From sequence record NC_027378.1: DNA of 56,776 nt. One strand, given 5' to 3'. Positions 14,929-20,618 of the stretch are shown one piece after another. The notes under the pieces were generated by a model. It was not told the DNA's origin, did no database searches, and saw only the letters and a list, made by a program, of their open reading frames with translations. Every line of letters begins with the position of its first letter. The stretch's first letter is position 1. This stretch comes from Escherichia phage Seurat. The translations under genes were made by a program, and so were the position numbers.

Positions 14929-15337
14929 GTTGCCGGGCTGGCAGACACGTTTATTAACCACAGTAAAGGAGTTGTCATCGACTCCTTTTTCTTGGGGTGA
15001 AAATGATTGCTGCACCTTCGCGGCTAAATGTGTTGATGCGCAATACGGCACAAATATCTACGAACAAGTTGCTGGAAAATATAGTACCGAGCTTGGAAGT
15101 AAAAAGTTCACTATTGAAAGAGTTGGAACCGCTTACCTTCCATTGTTATTGGATACTTACCTCAGCGAACGAGTTGACAAGAACTATGCGCAAAGAGGCG
15201 ATGTGGTTACATTTGAGGGAGCATTGGGCTTAACTGCTGGCATATTATGGACTGGATATGTATGGGCTATGGGTCCGAACGGTGTGGAAACATTCCCGCT
15301 TAATAAGATCAAAATTACGGATATTTGGAGGGTCTAA
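14903..15337 (+). CDS. tail assembly protein, gpK-like (possible NlpC/P60-type Cys peptidase)
   Basis: Reset to the ATG at 14903 with RBS GGGGGAG; WGENDCCTFAAKC Cys motif. Confidence 0.45.
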   Translation: MRQGFPMSKLPGWQTRLLTTVKELSSTPFSWGENDCCTFAAKCVDAQYGTNIYEQVAGKYSTELGSKKFTIERVGTAYLPLLLDTYLSERVDKNYAQRGDVVTFEGALGLTAGILWTGYVWAMGPNGVETFPLNKIKITDIWRV

Positions 15338-18300
15338 TGCCACCAGCAATAATTGGAGCAGCGATAGCTTTAGGTGCGTCAGCTGCTGCCGCGGCTAGTA
15401 TTATTTCGGCTACTACCGCTCTCGTTATCGGTATTGCTGCAACCGCGGCAGGTGCTCTTTTAACTAAGACACCAAATATGAACTTTGATGCTTACAAGGG
15501 GCAGCAAGAGCGTAAACAGGTTCTGCGTGCAGCTACAGCGTCACGTTCTGTTGTATATGGCACGACTGTAGCGTCCGGACTATTAGCATTTGCGGAGGAA
15601 GAAGCTGGAGATCAAGATGAAGGTGAATGGATGCATCTTGTTGTCGTTCTTGCCAGTCATAAATTGGAAGGTATTGAAACGATTTGGTTGGGTGATGACG
15701 GAATTGATTGGTTTGGTGAAAACGCTACTTGGGAGTTTCATAACGACCGTCAGACTGTTGACCCATTCATGTTAAAACATTGTCCTTCCTGGAAGGAGGA
15801 TATGATTGGCAAGGGTATTGCATGGCTACGTTTAAGCTTAAAGTTTGATGCTGAAAAATTCCCATCCGGTTTGCCAAACGTCAAGGTGTTGAAAAAGGGA
15901 CGTAGAATTTATGACCCACGTTCCGGTCAAACTGTCTTTAGCGATAACGCCGCTCTTGTTATTCTTGATTATTTCCGCACGTATTTAAAGCGCAAGGACG
16001 AGAATATTAACTGGGACCAATTCAAGGAAGCTGCTAACATCTGCGATGAGTTTGTTACTAACGCAGATAACACTACGGAAAGACGCTATCGCATTAACGG
16101 TGAGTTTGAAGTGGATGAAGCACCTGCCAAAATCCTTGATGCTATGCTTGAAGCTTGCGGCGGGGAGCTTACCTATATTGGCGGCAAGCATGGTCTGTTA
16201 GTTGGTGCTTATTACGGCCCAGCTACCATGACTTTGGATGAAAGCTGCATTGCTGGGGATATTAAAATAATCCCTGAGACGTCTTATAAAGAGCGTACCA
16301 ATACCATTACAGGTACATTCGTCGACCCGAAGCAAACATACGCTGAAGCAGATTTCCCTCCAGTTGTGGTTAAGGAATGGGTGGAAAAAGATGGCGGTGA
16401 AATAACGCAAGACATGGATTTCCGCTTTGTTACAAGTGAATATCAAGCTCAACGTCTTGCTAATATTATTTTACGTCGTAAGCGTGTTGGTCGAACAATT
16501 GAAGTTCCGTGTAACATGAAGGGGTATAAATTCCGCCCAGGCATGTATGTCAACGTAACCATTTCAAACATCGAAATGAAAAACGTTGAGATGCGCGTTA
16601 CTAAATGGTCATTCGATCTTAAAGGTGGGATTAATCTTGTCCTTCGTCAAGACTTCCTGGAAATGTGGGACGACGCTATTGGTAAACCAATGGAGCGCCC
16701 GGATCTGGTAGACCTTCCGTCTGGTGCTATTGCTCAACCGCAAAACCTTCAGTATCAGGTATTGCAGATTAGCGATGTTGTGCAGGGTGTTTTAACGTGG
16801 AGCAATATTGGGCAGGTAGCATATAACCGCGTAGCCGTGCGACAGGGAGGTACAACGGTTTGGACCGCACAAGTCCCTGGCCAAAACGTTCGCGTTACTG
16901 GGTTGCTGCGGGGCGCGTATACAGCGCATGTTCAAGCGGTAGCTTATAGCGGGGCAATATCGCCTGAAGCATATCTGGAATTTAATATTCAGGCTCCGCC
17001 GCCACCAACATCTATTGAAGTACAACAGGGTTACTTTGCTATAAGCCTAATCCCTAAATCTGCGGACCTTGCAAACGTTAGCACGCAGTATGATTTCTGG
17101 ACTTCCGGTGAAACAAGATTGTCATCTGTGTCTACAGACGTTGTTGAGCGTGAAGCAACTCGTAAAGGTATAGGCACAACCTGGACTTCGGAAGGTTTGA
17201 AGAATGACCACACTTATTACTGGTATGTCCGCACCATTAACGCTTTCGGATCATCTGCATTTGTAGAAGTAGCTGCATTGTGCTTTACAACAGCTACAGA
17301 TTTGATGCCACAAATTGATTCTGAATTCAAGAAGACGGAGACTTACAAAGAGCTTACTACTGAGATCACAGGTGTTAAAGACGGTGTTACTCAGCTTAGC
17401 CAAACTGTAGTGGAAACTGAACAGCGTTTAAGTCAAAGCGTTAGCAATGTTCAACAAAGCGTTATTACTTTGGACGGTGTTGTTCAGGATCAGGGCGTTA
17501 CCATTAACGAACAAGGACAGCTTATCGACGCACAGGGTAAGTTGATTGACACTCAAGGTAAGACTATTGAAACGGTTAGCGCGACCGTGCAGGAGACAAG
17601 TAAAGCAGTTGTAGATCTGGAAGGTAATGTTAACGCTCAATGGGGCGCTAAGGTACAGGTTGATAGTAAAGGACAAAAATACGTCGCTGGTATCCAGCTA
17701 GGTATGGAGGGTTCCGGTGGCGCTGTTCAGTCTTACTTTATGGTAAGTGCTAACAACTTTGCTATCTATAACCCGACAAACAGCGCCGCTGAATTAGCAT
17801 TTGCCGTTAAAAACGGTCAAGTGTTTATGAAGGCTACATTTATTGAAAATGGTACTATCGACAGTGCTAAGATAGCAAACCAAATTCAGTCAACAAACTA
17901 CGCTAACAATAGCGCGGGTTGGATGATTAACAAGAATGGTAGCGCTCAGTTTAACAACGTAACGATAAGAGGTACTGTATACGCTAACAACGGATCTTTC
18001 ACAGGCACAGTGAACGCAACAAGCGGTAAATTCAAGGGTACTGTGGAAGCTACCAGTTTTGTGGGTGATGTTGCGAATATGTGTGTCATTGCTGAGTCTG
18101 CAATACCAAACACACAAACTACAAGTTCAAGAACCTGGACAAAAACTTTCAAAGACTCATCTGGTTCAACATTATCTAAAGACTTTGTGTTGCTATTAAG
18201 TTATAGTTTAACTGCATATACATCAAAACAGGCGAGTCGTATAATTGTGACTGCTAACATAGGGGGGACATCAATTACAAGGAGGATTGAGCGAGCTGCT

Positions 18301-18459
18301 AATGGACCTGCGATGGATGTAACCATACCTTTAGCAGTGAAAGGAAAGACAGCGTCGCGCGTAACAATAAGCGTTAAGGAGGAGTATACGAACGTCTATG
18401 GGAGCTACTTGCGCCCGTCTGTAATATTAATGACTCGCGGAACTGGTAGTTGGTCGTAA
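15337..18459 (+). CDS. tail tip/host specificity protein, lambda gpJ-like
   Basis: Clear similarity to lambda J (YYWYVRTINAFGSSAFVEV vs lambda YYFYIRSVNTVGKSAFVEA; KYVAGIQLGMEG vs HYVAGIGLSMED); track start is TTG at 15325, reset to the ATG at 15337 with RBS GGAGGG. Confidence 0.85.
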   Translation: MPPAIIGAAIALGASAAAAASIISATTALVIGIAATAAGALLTKTPNMNFDAYKGQQERKQVLRAATASRSVVYGTTVASGLLAFAEEEAGDQDEGEWMHLVVVLASHKLEGIETIWLGDDGIDWFGENATWEFHNDRQTVDPFMLKHCPSWKEDMIGKGIAWLRLSLKFDAEKFPSGLPNVKVLKKGRRIYDPRSGQTVFSDNAALVILDYFRTYLKRKDENINWDQFKEAANICDEFVTNADNTTERRYRINGEFEVDEAPAKILDAMLEACGGELTYIGGKHGLLVGAYYGPATMTLDESCIAGDIKIIPETSYKERTNTITGTFVDPKQTYAEADFPPVVVKEWVEKDGGEITQDMDFRFVTSEYQAQRLANIILRRKRVGRTIEVPCNMKGYKFRPGMYVNVTISNIEMKNVEMRVTKWSFDLKGGINLVLRQDFLEMWDDAIGKPMERPDLVDLPSGAIAQPQNLQYQVLQISDVVQGVLTWSNIGQVAYNRVAVRQGGTTVWTAQVPGQNVRVTGLLRGAYTAHVQAVAYSGAISPEAYLEFNIQAPPPPTSIEVQQGYFAISLIPKSADLANVSTQYDFWTSGETRLSSVSTDVVEREATRKGIGTTWTSEGLKNDHTYYWYVRTINAFGSSAFVEVAALCFTTATDLMPQIDSEFKKTETYKELTTEITGVKDGVTQLSQTVVETEQRLSQSVSNVQQSVITLDGVVQDQGVTINEQGQLIDAQGKLIDTQGKTIETVSATVQETSKAVVDLEGNVNAQWGAKVQVDSKGQKYVAGIQLGMEGSGGAVQSYFMVSANNFAIYNPTNSAAELAFAVKNGQVFMKATFIENGTIDSAKIANQIQSTNYANNSAGWMINKNGSAQFNNVTIRGTVYANNGSFTGTVNATSGKFKGTVEATSFVGDVANMCVIAESAIPNTQTTSSRTWTKTFKDSSGSTLSKDFVLLLSYSLTAYTSKQASRIIVTANIGGTSITRRIERAANGPAMDVTIPLAVKGKTASRVTISVKEEYTNVYGSYLRPSVILMTRGTGSWS

Positions 18460-18466
18460 TAAATAA

Positions 18467-18494
18467 TTAACCCCTCAAACGAGGGGTTAATTTT
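18467..18494. terminator. bidirectional intrinsic terminator between J and the convergent lipoprotein gene
   Basis: TTAACCCCTC-aaac-GAGGGGTTAA perfect 10-bp stem with T-rich flanks on both strands. Confidence 0.6.
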
Positions 18495-18727
18495 CAATAA
18501 TCAATCACACAGTTTGAAGGTGAGCCAATTCGTCGGTATTCGTGATCAATTTCATGGCACCATTGCCCAGTCATTGGAAGCTTTTCGGTATTATAAATTA
18601 AAGAACCGTTACCATCGCGATCCAAAGGTTTTGGAATAACGCCGGAATTTGGTTTACCAGTATTTAAACCATTACCACATGCAGTGAGGGACAAACATAA
18701 TGCCAGCATAATTAGAGCGTGTTTCAT
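18494..18727 (-). CDS. small outer-membrane lipoprotein, candidate receptor-blocking superinfection exclusion protein (Cor/Llp-like)
   Basis: 77 aa; signal peptide MKHALIMLALCLSLTAC with lipobox LTAC; opposite strand between J and the side fibre; RBS AAAGGAG. Confidence 0.6.
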   Translation of the reverse strand: MKHALIMLALCLSLTACGNGLNTGKPNSGVIPKPLDRDGNGSLIYNTEKLPMTGQWCHEIDHEYRRIGSPSNCVIDY

Positions 18728-18763
18728 CGGGACTCCTTTGTGTTGTTGTCAAGGTTCAATTTT

Positions 18764-18791
18764 AATATACTTGTTGTGTTGAGTAAGTCAA
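18764..18791 (-). promoter_or_regulatory. sigma70-like promoter for the lipoprotein gene
   Basis: TTGACT-N16-TATATT on the minus strand about 40 nt upstream of the lipoprotein ATG. Confidence 0.45.
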
Positions 18792-18809
18792 ATAAATGTG
18801 GGAGATATT

Positions 18810-20618
18810 ATGGCAACTCGTTTACGTGGTACTTTAGTTGATGGTTTGAACAAGCCTATTATCAACGCTACAGTTGCGCTTTTAGCTAAAGGAAACAGTC
18901 TTACCGTATTATCCGGCAGCGAAGCTATCTTTAAAACAAGTGCAACCGGAACTTATGATATTACAGTCCAGACAGGTTATTACAAGGTTATTATCGGTCC
19001 ACAGGGCGTAGAGCCATATAAAGCTGGTGAAATTGCTATTTACGCGGATAGTAAAGAAGGTACGCTGAATAACTATTTAACTACATGGGCACCGGAAGAA
19101 TTAACTCCGGAAGTTATTGCTCAGGTAAAAGATTTGGTTGCACAAGCAGAGACGGCTAAGAATGCTTCAGCTTCGTCTGCTACTAAATCCGAGCAAGAAC
19201 GCGTTAAAGCAGAAGCTGCTGCTAGAAAGGCAGAAGACACTGCTAATGGTATGAAGGCGTCTATTGGTCTTAGCAATGTTCCAAGACATGTAGCAGATAT
19301 TAGTGGAAACCCTTCTGAGTTCTTAGGGTTTATACGCATATTAAGGACAACTACTGTCGGTTATCCTTCAATTGCTTCTGGTGAAACAGTATTAGCTGGT
19401 TTTGTGTCACCGATGGATGGAACTCCAGGATATACTGGTGTATTTGTTGGAGATGTGACTGGGACTTTATATACTTACCGTTGGACTTCAGTTACTGGCG
19501 CTATATGGTGGAAACATGTAAAATCAGAAACAATAGACAGATATACACAATTATCCGATTCCACTACTATTTATAATGCGTCAAAGAGCGCTACCCTTGT
19601 CATAAAAGATACTAAAACTTGGGGAGCTTGGGACAATCAAAGCTCCAAATACATACCTCTGGCAATAGCACAGGGTGGCACTGGAGGGGTTACTGACGCG
19701 GACGCTCGTACAAACTTAAAGCTTGGCGCTAACGATACCCCGCAATTCAGAAACCTTAATCTTGTTACCGTAGCGGACACGGCGCAAGCCCCTTCCGGTA
19801 TTGTAAGCGGTTATTTAAATAATAGCTCTGGAGTTCAAAGATGCCGCTACCGCATATATTCTGAAATACGCGGTGACAATAAAGCGTGGTTAACCTTACA
19901 CCTTCAATCAGACACAGCAACAAATAAATATGCTGGTCTAAGCGTTGATGGTAATTTTCAAATCAATGGAAGTTTTATCGGTAACGCTTTAAGTCTTAGT
20001 GATGTCCCTACTTCTAAAGTAAATCTTCAAATTAATAGATTTGTTCAGAACACTGGTGAAACTGATGTGGTTAACCATGCAGGGACAGCTCAAATTTTTA
20101 TCACTGATAATAAAAATTGGGGAGCTTACGATAAAGAATCAAAGCGCCATATTCCTTTGCCCATTTCACAAGGAGGTACTGGAGCGGTTACTATTGCTGA
20201 TGCTAAAACCAATCTTCAAATTCCATCTGTAGGTGGGGGTGATTGGTTAACTTATAACGCCCCTCCTGGCGTGGAAGCTGGAAAGTATTATCCCGTTATT
20301 ATTGATATGGCGTATAGTTCTTTATATGCTTCCGGCGCTTTTATAGATATAAAAACAAAATCCGCCTCTGGCGATGATCCAATGAACTGCTGCACTTTTA
20401 ACGGTTTTATCCGATGTGGTGGTTGGAGCGATCGTAAAGACTTCGCAGGGGATTTTATTAGTAAGTTTCTTGGTATGCAACCAGAGCAGCCTGTAGAAGC
20501 ACGCGAGCATATTAGCCCGTGGCCACCCATGATTGATCAGGAAGTGCTGCAACCAAAGACCGCTCAAACGGTCCCTCAGAAACCGGAGCAGAAGGTGAAA
20601 CCAAATGACGAAGAATGA
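18810..20618 (+). CDS. side tail fibre / receptor-binding protein
   Basis: Track start is GTG at 18798, reset to the ATG at 18810 (RBS GGGAGA); two internal repeats (KTWGAWDNQSSKYIPLAIAQGGTGGVT... and NKNWGAYDKESKRHIPLPISQGGTGAVT...). Confidence 0.7.
   Translation: MATRLRGTLVDGLNKPIINATVALLAKGNSLTVLSGSEAIFKTSATGTYDITVQTGYYKVIIGPQGVEPYKAGEIAIYADSKEGTLNNYLTTWAPEELTPEVIAQVKDLVAQAETAKNASASSATKSEQERVKAEAAARKAEDTANGMKASIGLSNVPRHVADISGNPSEFLGFIRILRTTTVGYPSIASGETVLAGFVSPMDGTPGYTGVFVGDVTGTLYTYRWTSVTGAIWWKHVKSETIDRYTQLSDSTTIYNASKSATLVIKDTKTWGAWDNQSSKYIPLAIAQGGTGGVTDADARTNLKLGANDTPQFRNLNLVTVADTAQAPSGIVSGYLNNSSGVQRCRYRIYSEIRGDNKAWLTLHLQSDTATNKYAGLSVDGNFQINGSFIGNALSLSDVPTSKVNLQINRFVQNTGETDVVNHAGTAQIFITDNKNWGAYDKESKRHIPLPISQGGTGAVTIADAKTNLQIPSVGGGDWLTYNAPPGVEAGKYYPVIIDMAYSSLYASGAFIDIKTKSASGDDPMNCCTFNGFIRCGGWSDRKDFAGDFISKFLGMQPEQPVEAREHISPWPPMIDQEVLQPKTAQTVPQKPEQKVKPNDEE

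What the first reader, a model, noticed from the sequence alone, without database searches (positions are those of the whole stretch)
18494..18791. Stand-alone lipoprotein gene with its own promoter, antisense between the J-like and side-fibre genes
Seen: a 77-aa ORF with signal peptide and lipobox (LTAC), flanked by a bidirectional terminator and a well-spaced TTGACT-N16-TATATT promoter. Established: T5 Llp and Cor of T1/phi80-type phages are small lipoproteins encoded beside receptor-binding genes that block the phage's own outer-membrane receptor. Inference: this is a receptor-masking superinfection exclusion gene, and its placement hints at which receptor the J-like protein uses.
Basis: partly seen in the sequence, partly recalled or inferred. 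Interest (0 to 1): 0.55.

Follow-up and report, generated by a model that had tools for sequence, protein, structure and literature searches.

The report
LamB-linked phage exclusion lipoprotein gene
A small phage gene next to the tail-tip gene encodes an outer-membrane lipoprotein, related to one shown experimentally to block phages that use the LamB porin, so it is an ordinary and largely anticipated receptor-blocking gene.

Summary
Window 18494-18727 (-) is a real, purifying-selected 77-aa gene with a classic lipoprotein signal peptide (LTA|C, Gly at +2). It has a strong Shine-Dalgarno, a sigma-70-like promoter in the 83-bp spacer, and a strong hairpin terminator shared with the convergent J gene.

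The window is a Seuratvirus (98.8% to phage slur01).

The interpretation, a receptor-directed superinfection-exclusion lipoprotein, is supported and can be sharpened.
- The protein has no detectable sequence relation to T5 Llp, T1 Cor or Rtp45.
- It is a clear homologue (54% identity overall, 71% in the core) of Lpp010 (gp116) of temperate phage mEp010. Published work shows that plasmid-expressed Lpp010 excludes LamB-dependent phages, including lambda.
- Every carrier with an experimentally known receptor uses LamB (BASEL Bas21-24, mEp010/013/044/554).
- The window's J C-terminal receptor-binding extension is 96% identical to that of LamB-dependent SeppeHuegi.

The receptor is therefore LamB, not FhuA or BtuB.

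How the protein disables LamB is not shown. Adsorption block versus DNA-entry block is unresolved, and the AlphaFold2 model was unusable.

This is a new member of a recently characterised kind. Interest is modest.

The parts
17998..18459 (+). C-terminal extension of the J-like tail-tip protein (residues ~892-1044), the integrated receptor-binding domain
   Evidence: Pfam Phage_Tail_Tip ends at residue 891 and nothing is annotated beyond it. The T1 and Rtp J proteins align only up to window J residues ~897-904, 10-24 residues short of their own C-termini. The AF2 model has pLDDT ~94 for the beta-sandwich. Its best PDB fold matches are the lambda gpJ central fibre and the gpJ-LamB complex, 8xck/8xcj, E~4e-6, TM only 0.42. 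The last 160 aa are 96% identical to LamB-dependent SeppeHuegi.
18465..18492 (.). Hairpin terminator between the convergent J and lipoprotein genes
   Evidence: 12-bp stem; -17.6 and -18.2 kcal/mol, z -6.1 and -5.5 on the two strands. The stem is maintained with compensatory changes in KurtStettler, AS5 and mEp010. It is annotated as a terminator in mEp010 and as the 'H1 loop' in 9g.
18494..18727 (-). Lipoprotein CDS (77 aa precursor; signal peptide aa 1-16; lipidated Cys17 at 18677-18679; 61-aa mature protein with conserved Cys57 and Cys73)
   Evidence: Homologue of Lpp010.
18733..18736 (-). Shine-Dalgarno GGAG, 5 nt upstream of the ATG
   Evidence: Read from the sequence; conserved in the six Queuovirinae rows of alignment A3.
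18764..18791 (-). Sigma-70-like promoter TTGACT-N16-TATATT
   Evidence: 10/12. Position conserved in Seuratvirus phages including KurtStettler, weaker in 9g, and in the EcN and MS 115-1 prophages as TTTACT/TTAACT-16-TATATT. The consensus match alone is not statistically distinctive.
18811..20618 (+). Divergently transcribed lateral tail fibre gene (truncated here); its first ~58 nt belong to the exchanged cassette
   Evidence: Annotation of slur01 and KS_A3. Cassette boundary at 18868. Deletion relative to slur01.

Best explanation
The gene encodes a Lol-sorted outer-membrane lipoprotein that the phage makes from its own host-type promoter, independently of the late tail operon in which it is embedded. 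After secretion, lipidation at Cys17 and probable Cys57-Cys73 disulfide formation, the 61-residue mature protein sits on the periplasmic face of the outer membrane. There it acts on maltoporin LamB, the terminal receptor recognised by the C-terminal domain of this phage's own J protein. LamB then no longer supports infection. This protects the infected cell from superinfection and spares progeny from being wasted on cell debris.

Shown: the gene, its signals, its homology to Lpp010, its linkage to LamB-using phages, and the published exclusion phenotype of the homologue.

Inferred: early expression, outer-membrane location, the disulfide, direct binding to LamB, and which step is blocked (adsorption or DNA entry).
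For: Homology and published phenotype:
- The protein is a homologue of the experimentally tested Lpp010 (phenotype in PMC11893012).
- Lpp010 also excludes lambda. The last ~105 residues of the window's J show no sequence match to lambda J, and mEp010's RBD is only 28% identical to the window's. This points to the shared receptor rather than the RBP as the target.

Receptor linkage:
- All carriers with known receptors use LamB. These are Bas21-24 and mEp010/013/044/554.
- The LptD-using Queuovirinae Bas19, 20 and 25 are absent from the 42 tblastn hits.
- VogelGryff has a different allele at the same locus.

Synteny:
- The gene is always antisense, directly after J. This holds in Seuratvirus, Nonagvirus, Dhillonvirus, a Drexlerviridae phage, temperate mEp phages and E. 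coli prophages.

The lipoprotein tracks the receptor, not the RBD subtype:
- The mature protein is ~95% identical between the window and KurtStettler (my count from the sequences), while their RBDs are 30% identical. Both phages are LamB-dependent.

Localisation signals:
- The +2 residue is G/A/S/T in all members, never Asp. By the established E. coli Lol sorting rule, this predicts outer-membrane sorting.
- Two cysteines are conserved in the mature protein.

Selection and expression signals:
- Strong purifying selection.
- Own promoter, SD and terminator.
- The gene has the orientation of the replication and early genes.
Against: - No experiment exists on this gene or on any Queuovirinae copy.
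- Identity to the tested homologue is only 54%.
- The mEp study used spot assays, not adsorption assays, so 'masking' is not demonstrated. LamB-dependent mEp013 escaped Lpp010.
- E. coli Nissle 1917 carries an intact copy yet was reported to still bind lambda through LamB (PMC5987069). If that copy is expressed, this argues against a simple adsorption block.
- The AlphaFold2 model of the mature protein was poor (pLDDT 51.5), so there is no structural support.
- The promoter match alone is within chance expectation for the window.
Confidence: 0.75

Rival explanations
1. The lipoprotein excludes LamB-dependent phages after adsorption. Phages still bind LamB, but triggering of ejection or passage of DNA across the periplasm and inner membrane is blocked, rather than the receptor being masked.
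For: The mEp paper itself leaves open 'interfere with DNA ejection ... or block the host receptor'. Nissle 1917, which carries an intact copy, binds lambda via LamB but is not infected, and the authors postulated an unknown factor preventing DNA entry. mEp013 escapes exclusion although it uses LamB.
Against: The predicted outer-membrane sorting (+2 Gly) places the protein next to LamB, not the inner membrane. The analogous Llp and Rtp45 both act by changing extracellular loops of the receptor (PMC12685063). Expression of the Nissle copy is unknown.
Confidence: 0.17
2. It is an outer-membrane spanin (Rz1-like) or another lysis-related lipoprotein.
For: Small outer-membrane lipoprotein. A weak PHROG match to an Rz-like spanin family (E=0.042) covers residues 2-32, mainly the signal peptide.
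Against: The gene lies in the tail module, not the lysis cassette. In the near-identical phage KS_A3, endolysin, holin and two overlapping downstream ORFs (typical of a spanin pair) lie about 39 kb away at 56.7-58.4 kb. There is no adjacent i-spanin. The mature region matches Lpp010, not any spanin family.
Confidence: 0.02
3. It is a moron with another envelope function (for example serum resistance like lambda Bor, or modulation of maltodextrin uptake), with exclusion only a side effect or absent in this lineage.
For: Function is untested in virulent phages. The family also sits in prophages of commensal E. coli, in 34 of 5426 complete genomes. Lambda places Lom at the equivalent position.
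Against: Strict linkage to LamB-specific J alleles across unrelated phage backbones, and co-transfer with the RBD as a 925-bp cassette. The homologue has a receptor-specific exclusion phenotype.
Confidence: 0.05

Closest known systems
Lpp010 (gp116) of temperate coliphage mEp010, the 'type-C' lipoprotein of the mEpimmI group (Front Microbiol 2025, PMC11893012)
   Same: True homologue: 54% identity over 95% of the length and 71% over the C-terminal 52 residues. It shares the motifs PNSGVxP, DTEKLP, GQWCHE and RRIGSPSNC, and both mature cysteines. It sits in the same antisense position between J and the side tail fibre gene, with a terminator after it. Its host phages use LamB.
   Different: The carrier is a temperate, non-lambdoid phage rather than a virulent Seuratvirus. 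The N-terminal tether of the mature protein differs (AVDKEAALHNL versus GNGLNTGK). No sigma-70-like site was found directly upstream, and an extra small ORF lies upstream. The accompanying J RBD is of the other subtype (28% identical).
Llp of phage T5 (FhuA-directed superinfection exclusion lipoprotein; PDB 7qjf, 8a60)
   Same: A ~60-residue mature outer-membrane lipoprotein with a cysteine pair, encoded beside the receptor-binding gene with its own promoter. It prevents infection through the phage's own receptor from the periplasmic side.
   Different: No detectable sequence similarity. The receptor is the TonB-dependent transporter FhuA, not a trimeric porin. Structural comparison was not possible because the model was poor.
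Cor of T1 / phi80 / N15 (FhuA-directed)
   Same: A small lipoprotein encoded antisense close downstream of the J/RBP genes in a small siphovirus (T1 gene 30), with a cysteine near the C-terminus.
   Different: No similarity beyond the signal peptide. Linked to FhuA, not LamB.
Rtp45 of phage Rtp (LptD-directed; Pfam PF24052; cryo-EM complex in PMC12685063)
   Same: Same locus logic in small siphoviruses. A ~6 kDa periplasmic lipoprotein with a disulfide that displaces an extracellular loop of a non-TonB-dependent outer-membrane protein by reaching up through the barrel. This is a plausible mechanistic template for LamB.
   Different: No sequence similarity, and the window protein does not match PF24052. 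Rtp45 accompanies a separate RBP gene (rtp44) rather than an RBD fused to J.

Membership tests
Lpp010-like LamB-associated exclusion lipoproteins (PHROG 12984) | Sequence homology to Lpp010 / PHROG 12984 over the mature domain | tested here: met
   PHROG 12984 E=1e-56, full length. tblastn to mEp010 gp116 E=8e-21. 71% identity over 52 mature residues. Shared invariant motifs.
Lpp010-like LamB-associated exclusion lipoproteins (PHROG 12984) | Type II signal peptide with lipobox; +2 residue compatible with outer-membrane sorting | tested here: met
   LTA|C at residues 14-17, K2, hydrophobic core. +2 is Gly, and no family member has Asp. Actual lipidation cannot be tested here.
Lpp010-like LamB-associated exclusion lipoproteins (PHROG 12984) | Encoded antisense immediately downstream of a J gene that carries a C-terminal RBD extension | tested here: met
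Lpp010-like LamB-associated exclusion lipoproteins (PHROG 12984) | Carrier phage uses LamB as terminal receptor | tested here: met
   Met by homology only. The window's J C-terminus is 96% identical to SeppeHuegi. Bas21-24 are listed as LamB-dependent in BASEL S5 Table, and KurtStettler's dependence was complemented. The window phage itself has not been tested.
Lpp010-like LamB-associated exclusion lipoproteins (PHROG 12984) | Expression excludes LamB-dependent phages | not testable with these tools
   Shown only for Lpp010 (PMC11893012).
T5 Llp family | Sequence or structural homology to Llp (7qjf / 8a60) | tested here: not met
   No blastp hit even at E<=1000. No PDB sequence hit at E<=10. 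Fold could not be assessed (pLDDT 51.5).
Cor (T1/phi80/N15) family | Sequence homology to Cor; association with FhuA-specific RBP genes | tested here: not met
   Only the signal peptide aligns (19 residues, E=0.018), and nothing aligns in the mature part. The carriers use LamB.
Rtp45 / Pfam PF24052 Phage_lipoprotein | Match to PF24052 | tested here: not met
   Rtp45 scores E=1e-37. The window protein has no PF24052 match at E<=1 and no blastp hit to Rtp45.
o-spanin (Rz1-like) | Located in or next to the lysis cassette, paired with an i-spanin gene | tested here: not met
   The gene lies in the tail module. In KS_A3 the lysis cassette, with overlapping ORFs after the holin, is at 56.7-58.4 kb.

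The most novel reading that the evidence does not exclude
The protein may disable a trimeric sugar porin (LamB) from the periplasmic side by a mechanism different from Llp-FhuA allostery. For example, it could reach into the maltoporin barrel as Rtp45 does in LptD. That would also shut maltodextrin uptake, and it might block infection after phage binding rather than before. The intact copy in an E. coli Nissle 1917 prophage could then be the unidentified factor behind that probiotic's complete resistance to lambda.
Probability: 0.3. Interest if true: 0.55.

Novelty: new member of a known kind. Interest (0 to 1): 0.3.

Why it matters
The finding assigns a concrete, testable function and target (LamB) to a gene that most database records call 'hypothetical protein' or just 'lipoprotein'. 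This applies across Seuratvirus, Nonagvirus and Dhillonvirus phages, a Drexlerviridae phage, and about 0.6% of complete E. coli genomes.

It links virulent Queuovirinae to the only tested member of the family. It also shows that the J receptor-binding domain and the exclusion gene move together as a ~0.9-kb cassette between virulent and temperate phages.

Practical consequences:
- Receptor and cross-exclusion can be predicted when designing phage cocktails.
- No structure of a LamB-exclusion-protein complex was found in the PDB sequence search or in my literature searches, so this family offers a candidate.
- It provides a candidate explanation for phage resistance of a widely used probiotic strain.

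Tried and rejected
- AlphaFold2 on the mature protein with a 21-sequence alignment gave pLDDT 51.5 and pTM 0.25. I therefore ran no fold search on it and make no structural claim.
- Pfam, NCBIfam and PADLOC gave only sub-threshold signal-peptide matches or nothing. A PDB sequence search found nothing at E<=10.
- A profile search of 1.84 billion representatives found only 4 proteins, so no wider family emerged. The one outlier, a 4467-aa repeat protein, matches a short DxNGNG...TE-like motif. I considered a Ca-binding loop, but the acidic positions are not conserved in the family, so I dropped it.
- Direct blastp against Llp, Cor and Rtp45 was negative.
- The o-spanin idea is rejected on gene position.
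- The promoter consensus by itself is not significant; I rely on position and conservation instead.
- I could not establish which assembly the Nissle paper's prophage coordinates refer to. Assigning the Nissle copy to their 'prophage 4' is therefore tentative.
- Literature searches for a LamB-exclusion-protein structure, or for any test of the Seuratvirus or 9g gene, found nothing.

Full report
**What is there.** Window 18494-18727 on the minus strand is an ATG-initiated 77-codon ORF, MKHALIMLALCLSLTACGNGLNTGKPNSGVIPKPLDRDGNGSLIYNTEKLPMTGQWCHEIDHEYRRIGSPSNCVIDY. It has a basic n-region, an uncharged hydrophobic core and the lipobox L-T-A-C, with Cys17 as the lipidation site. A PROSITE-style lipoprotein rule passes for 8 of 1500 start/ORF combinations in the window (6 ORFs). 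This is the only one with a canonical signal peptide. GGAG lies 5 nt before the ATG.

The gene lies tail-to-tail with the 1044-aa J-like gene (15325-18459, +). It lies head-to-head with the lateral tail fibre gene, which starts at 18811 (+).

**Flanking signals.** A 12-bp-stem hairpin at 18465-18492 fills the J/lipoprotein gap. It folds at -17.6 and -18.2 kcal/mol on the two strands, z -6.1 and -5.5, with 0 of 200 shuffles as good. Its stem is kept through compensatory substitutions in KurtStettler, AS5 and mEp010. The scanner called it a terminator only for the minus strand, so 'bidirectional' is likely but not established.

The promoter TTGACT-N16-TATATT is at 18791-18764 as described. Such 10/12 matches are not rare: 19 in the window against 14.5+-3.7 in simulations. 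What supports it is position. By my arithmetic, only about 0.01 such sites would be expected by chance on that strand of the 83-bp spacer. The same element sits at the same distance from the ATG in KurtStettler, where the adjacent coding sequence has dS ~1.2. It is also present in two E. coli prophages, and is weaker in 9g.

**It is a real, constrained gene.** It matches PHROG 12984 ('lipoprotein') end to end at E=1e-56. Pairwise dN/dS against relatives is 0.10-0.16. The family is small: 22 clusters at 90% identity in 5.8 billion proteins, and 4 representatives at 50% identity in 1.84 billion. Invariant or near-invariant features are the lipobox Cys, PNSGVxP, TE(K)LP, GQWC(H)E and (S)NC near the C-terminus. 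These include two cysteines in the mature protein (Cys57, Cys73), which probably form a periplasmic disulfide. The residue after the lipidated Cys is G, A, S or T in all members, never Asp. By the established E. coli Lol rule, this predicts sorting to the inner leaflet of the outer membrane.

**Genomic setting.** The window is a Seuratvirus (Queuovirinae). The surveyed 2.5 kb (17500-20000) is 98.8% identical to phage slur01 and 98% to KS_A3, where the gene is annotated merely as 'lipoprotein'. It is the only minus-strand gene inside the plus-strand structural block. It shares its orientation with the replication genes. The lysis cassette of the near-identical KS_A3 is ~39 kb away and has its own pair of overlapping post-holin ORFs. 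That removes the o-spanin reading.

**What it is related to.** There is no detectable similarity to T5 Llp (sequence verified against PDB 8a60), to T1 Cor or to Rtp45, whether as precursor or mature protein. There is no PDB sequence match at E<=10. Pfam, NCBIfam and PADLOC returned nothing above their thresholds, only weak signal-peptide matches. Rtp45 defines Pfam PF24052 (E=1e-37), which the window protein does not match.

A tblastn against 50,697 phage records found 42 carriers:
- Seuratvirus phages;
- Nonagvirus 9g (90% identical);
- Dhillonvirus EP23, HH3 and PNS1 (73-75%);
- the Drexlerviridae phage AS5 (55%);
- the temperate phages mEp010, mEp013, mEp044 and mEp554 (53-54%, E~1e-20).

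The mEp010 hit is gene mEp010_116. This is the gp116 cloned as pLpp010 in PMC11893012. In that paper Lpp010 expression blocked plating of LamB-dependent mEp010, mEp044, mEp554 and, unexpectedly, lambda. A different lipoprotein, Lpp021, blocked the OmpA-using phages mEp021 and mEp515. LamB-dependent mEp013 escaped. The window protein is 71% identical to Lpp010 over the 52 C-terminal residues.

**Which receptor.** In BASEL S5 Table, the Seuratviruses GottfriedDienst, KurtStettler, WildeMaa and SeppeHuegi (Bas21-24) have LamB as terminal receptor. Complementation is shown for KurtStettler. All four carry this gene. The LptD-using Queuovirinae (Bas19, 20, 25) do not appear among the hits.

VogelGryff (Bas25) has a different allele at the same locus. 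Its J is short (879 aa as annotated), followed by an antisense 333-aa ORF (321 aa as annotated) at the position where Rtp encodes its RBP rtp44.

The window's J continues beyond the point where the T1 and Rtp J proteins stop aligning (window residues ~897-904) and beyond the last Pfam domain (residue 891). The last 160 residues are 96-98% identical to SeppeHuegi, CAjan and slur01. An AlphaFold2 model of this extension is confident (pLDDT ~94 over the beta-sandwich). Its best PDB matches are the lambda gpJ central fibre and the gpJ-LamB complex (8xck, 8xcj, E~4e-6). TM is only ~0.42 and the fold is a generic jelly-roll, so this is supportive rather than decisive.

I conclude that the phage uses LamB through an RBD fused to J, as the BASEL authors describe for this locus type.

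**The lipoprotein tracks the receptor, not the RBD.** Carriers have two RBD subtypes: window/SeppeHuegi/EP23 versus KurtStettler/9g/mEp010. They are only ~30% identical to each other. Both subtypes include experimentally LamB-dependent phages. The mature lipoprotein is ~95% identical between the window and KurtStettler (my count from the sequences).

Nucleotide comparison defines the mobile unit. Window 17944-18868 covers the J RBD, the hairpin, the lipoprotein, the promoter and the first 58 nt of the fibre gene. It is 90% identical to a lambdoid prophage of E. coli MS 115-1. The Nissle 1917 prophage shares only 18460-18868, joined to the other RBD subtype.

Three observations fit a protein that recognises a conserved periplasmic or lumenal part of LamB:
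- the lipoprotein is well conserved while the RBDs have diverged;
- Lpp010 also excludes lambda;
- the predicted location is the outer membrane.

That final step is inference.

**Mechanism and its limits.** The most likely sequence of events is as follows:
- early transcription by host RNA polymerase;
- Sec export;
- Lgt/Lsp/Lnt processing;
- Lol transfer to the outer membrane;
- binding to LamB, so that LamB no longer supports infection.

The solved analogues show two routes. Llp acts on FhuA by allostery. Rtp45 inserts a hairpin up the LptD lumen and displaces an extracellular loop (PMC12685063). No data say which route, if either, applies to LamB.

Whether adsorption or a later step is blocked is open, for three reasons:
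- the mEp study used spot assays only;
- mEp013 escapes exclusion;
- Nissle 1917 has an intact copy and was reported to bind lambda via LamB without being infected (PMC5987069).

My AlphaFold2 model of the lipoprotein was unusable (pLDDT 51.5). [quoted passage not shown]

**Verdict.** The analogy to Llp and Cor is functional, not homologous. BASEL anticipates the general logic of exclusion genes at this locus, and a 2025 paper tests a homologue. This is therefore a new member of a known kind. The remaining interest lies in the unknown structural mechanism on a porin and in the prophage copies.

Noticed in passing
window 18811-20618 and junction near 20427-20441: The lateral tail fibre gene is truncated relative to slur01 and KS_A3. 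The window follows slur01 up to 20441 and resumes ~3.1 kb further on in slur01, with a 15-nt overlap at the junction. The deletion removes the distal half of gp60, gp61, gp62 and part of gp63. This phage may lack functional side fibres, like lambda PaPa, and rely on J-LamB alone.
   Followed up: partly
window 17944-18868; L015 8861-9784; L014 8861-9268: A ~925-bp cassette (J RBD, terminator, lipoprotein, promoter, start of the fibre gene) is 90% identical to a lambdoid prophage of E. coli MS 115-1. The Nissle 1917 prophage shares only the lipoprotein half, at 88%. This suggests recent exchange between virulent and temperate phages, with a breakpoint at the J stop codon.
   Followed up: yes
L014 9001-9234 (E. 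coli Nissle 1917, ECOLIN_RS28545): Nissle 1917 and its engineered derivatives carry an intact 77-aa homologue next to a prophage J gene. A 2018 study reported Nissle to be fully lambda-resistant, with an unidentified factor preventing DNA entry, while lambda still bound its LamB. Whether this gene is that factor is untested. Its assignment to their 'prophage 4' is tentative.
   Followed up: partly
L018 3290-4450 (VogelGryff, LptD allele of the same locus): The LptD-type allele in this Seuratvirus has a short J and an antisense 333-aa ORF at the position of Rtp's RBP rtp44. No lipobox ORF of >=30 aa lies beside it, unlike Rtp, which has rtp45.
   Followed up: partly
P0019 (E. coli chromosomal contigs): A frameshifted 74-aa variant of the lipoprotein, which loses GQWC...NC, occurs on 29 contigs including a 5.1-Mb chromosome. 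It is probably a decayed prophage copy.
   Followed up: no
window 18590-18640 (residues ~30-46 of the precursor); P0025: The profile's middle segment (DRDGNGSLIY(D/N)TE) matched nine repeats of a 4467-aa adhesin-like protein at E=1e-9. This is a DxNGNG-type motif resemblance. The acidic positions are not conserved within the family, so it is probably not meaningful.
   Followed up: partly
window 18465-18810, + strand: If the hairpin also terminates plus-strand transcription, the tail fibre gene needs its own promoter or readthrough. The only plus-strand candidate seen is a weak 9/12 site at 18672-18701, inside the lipoprotein gene.
   Followed up: no
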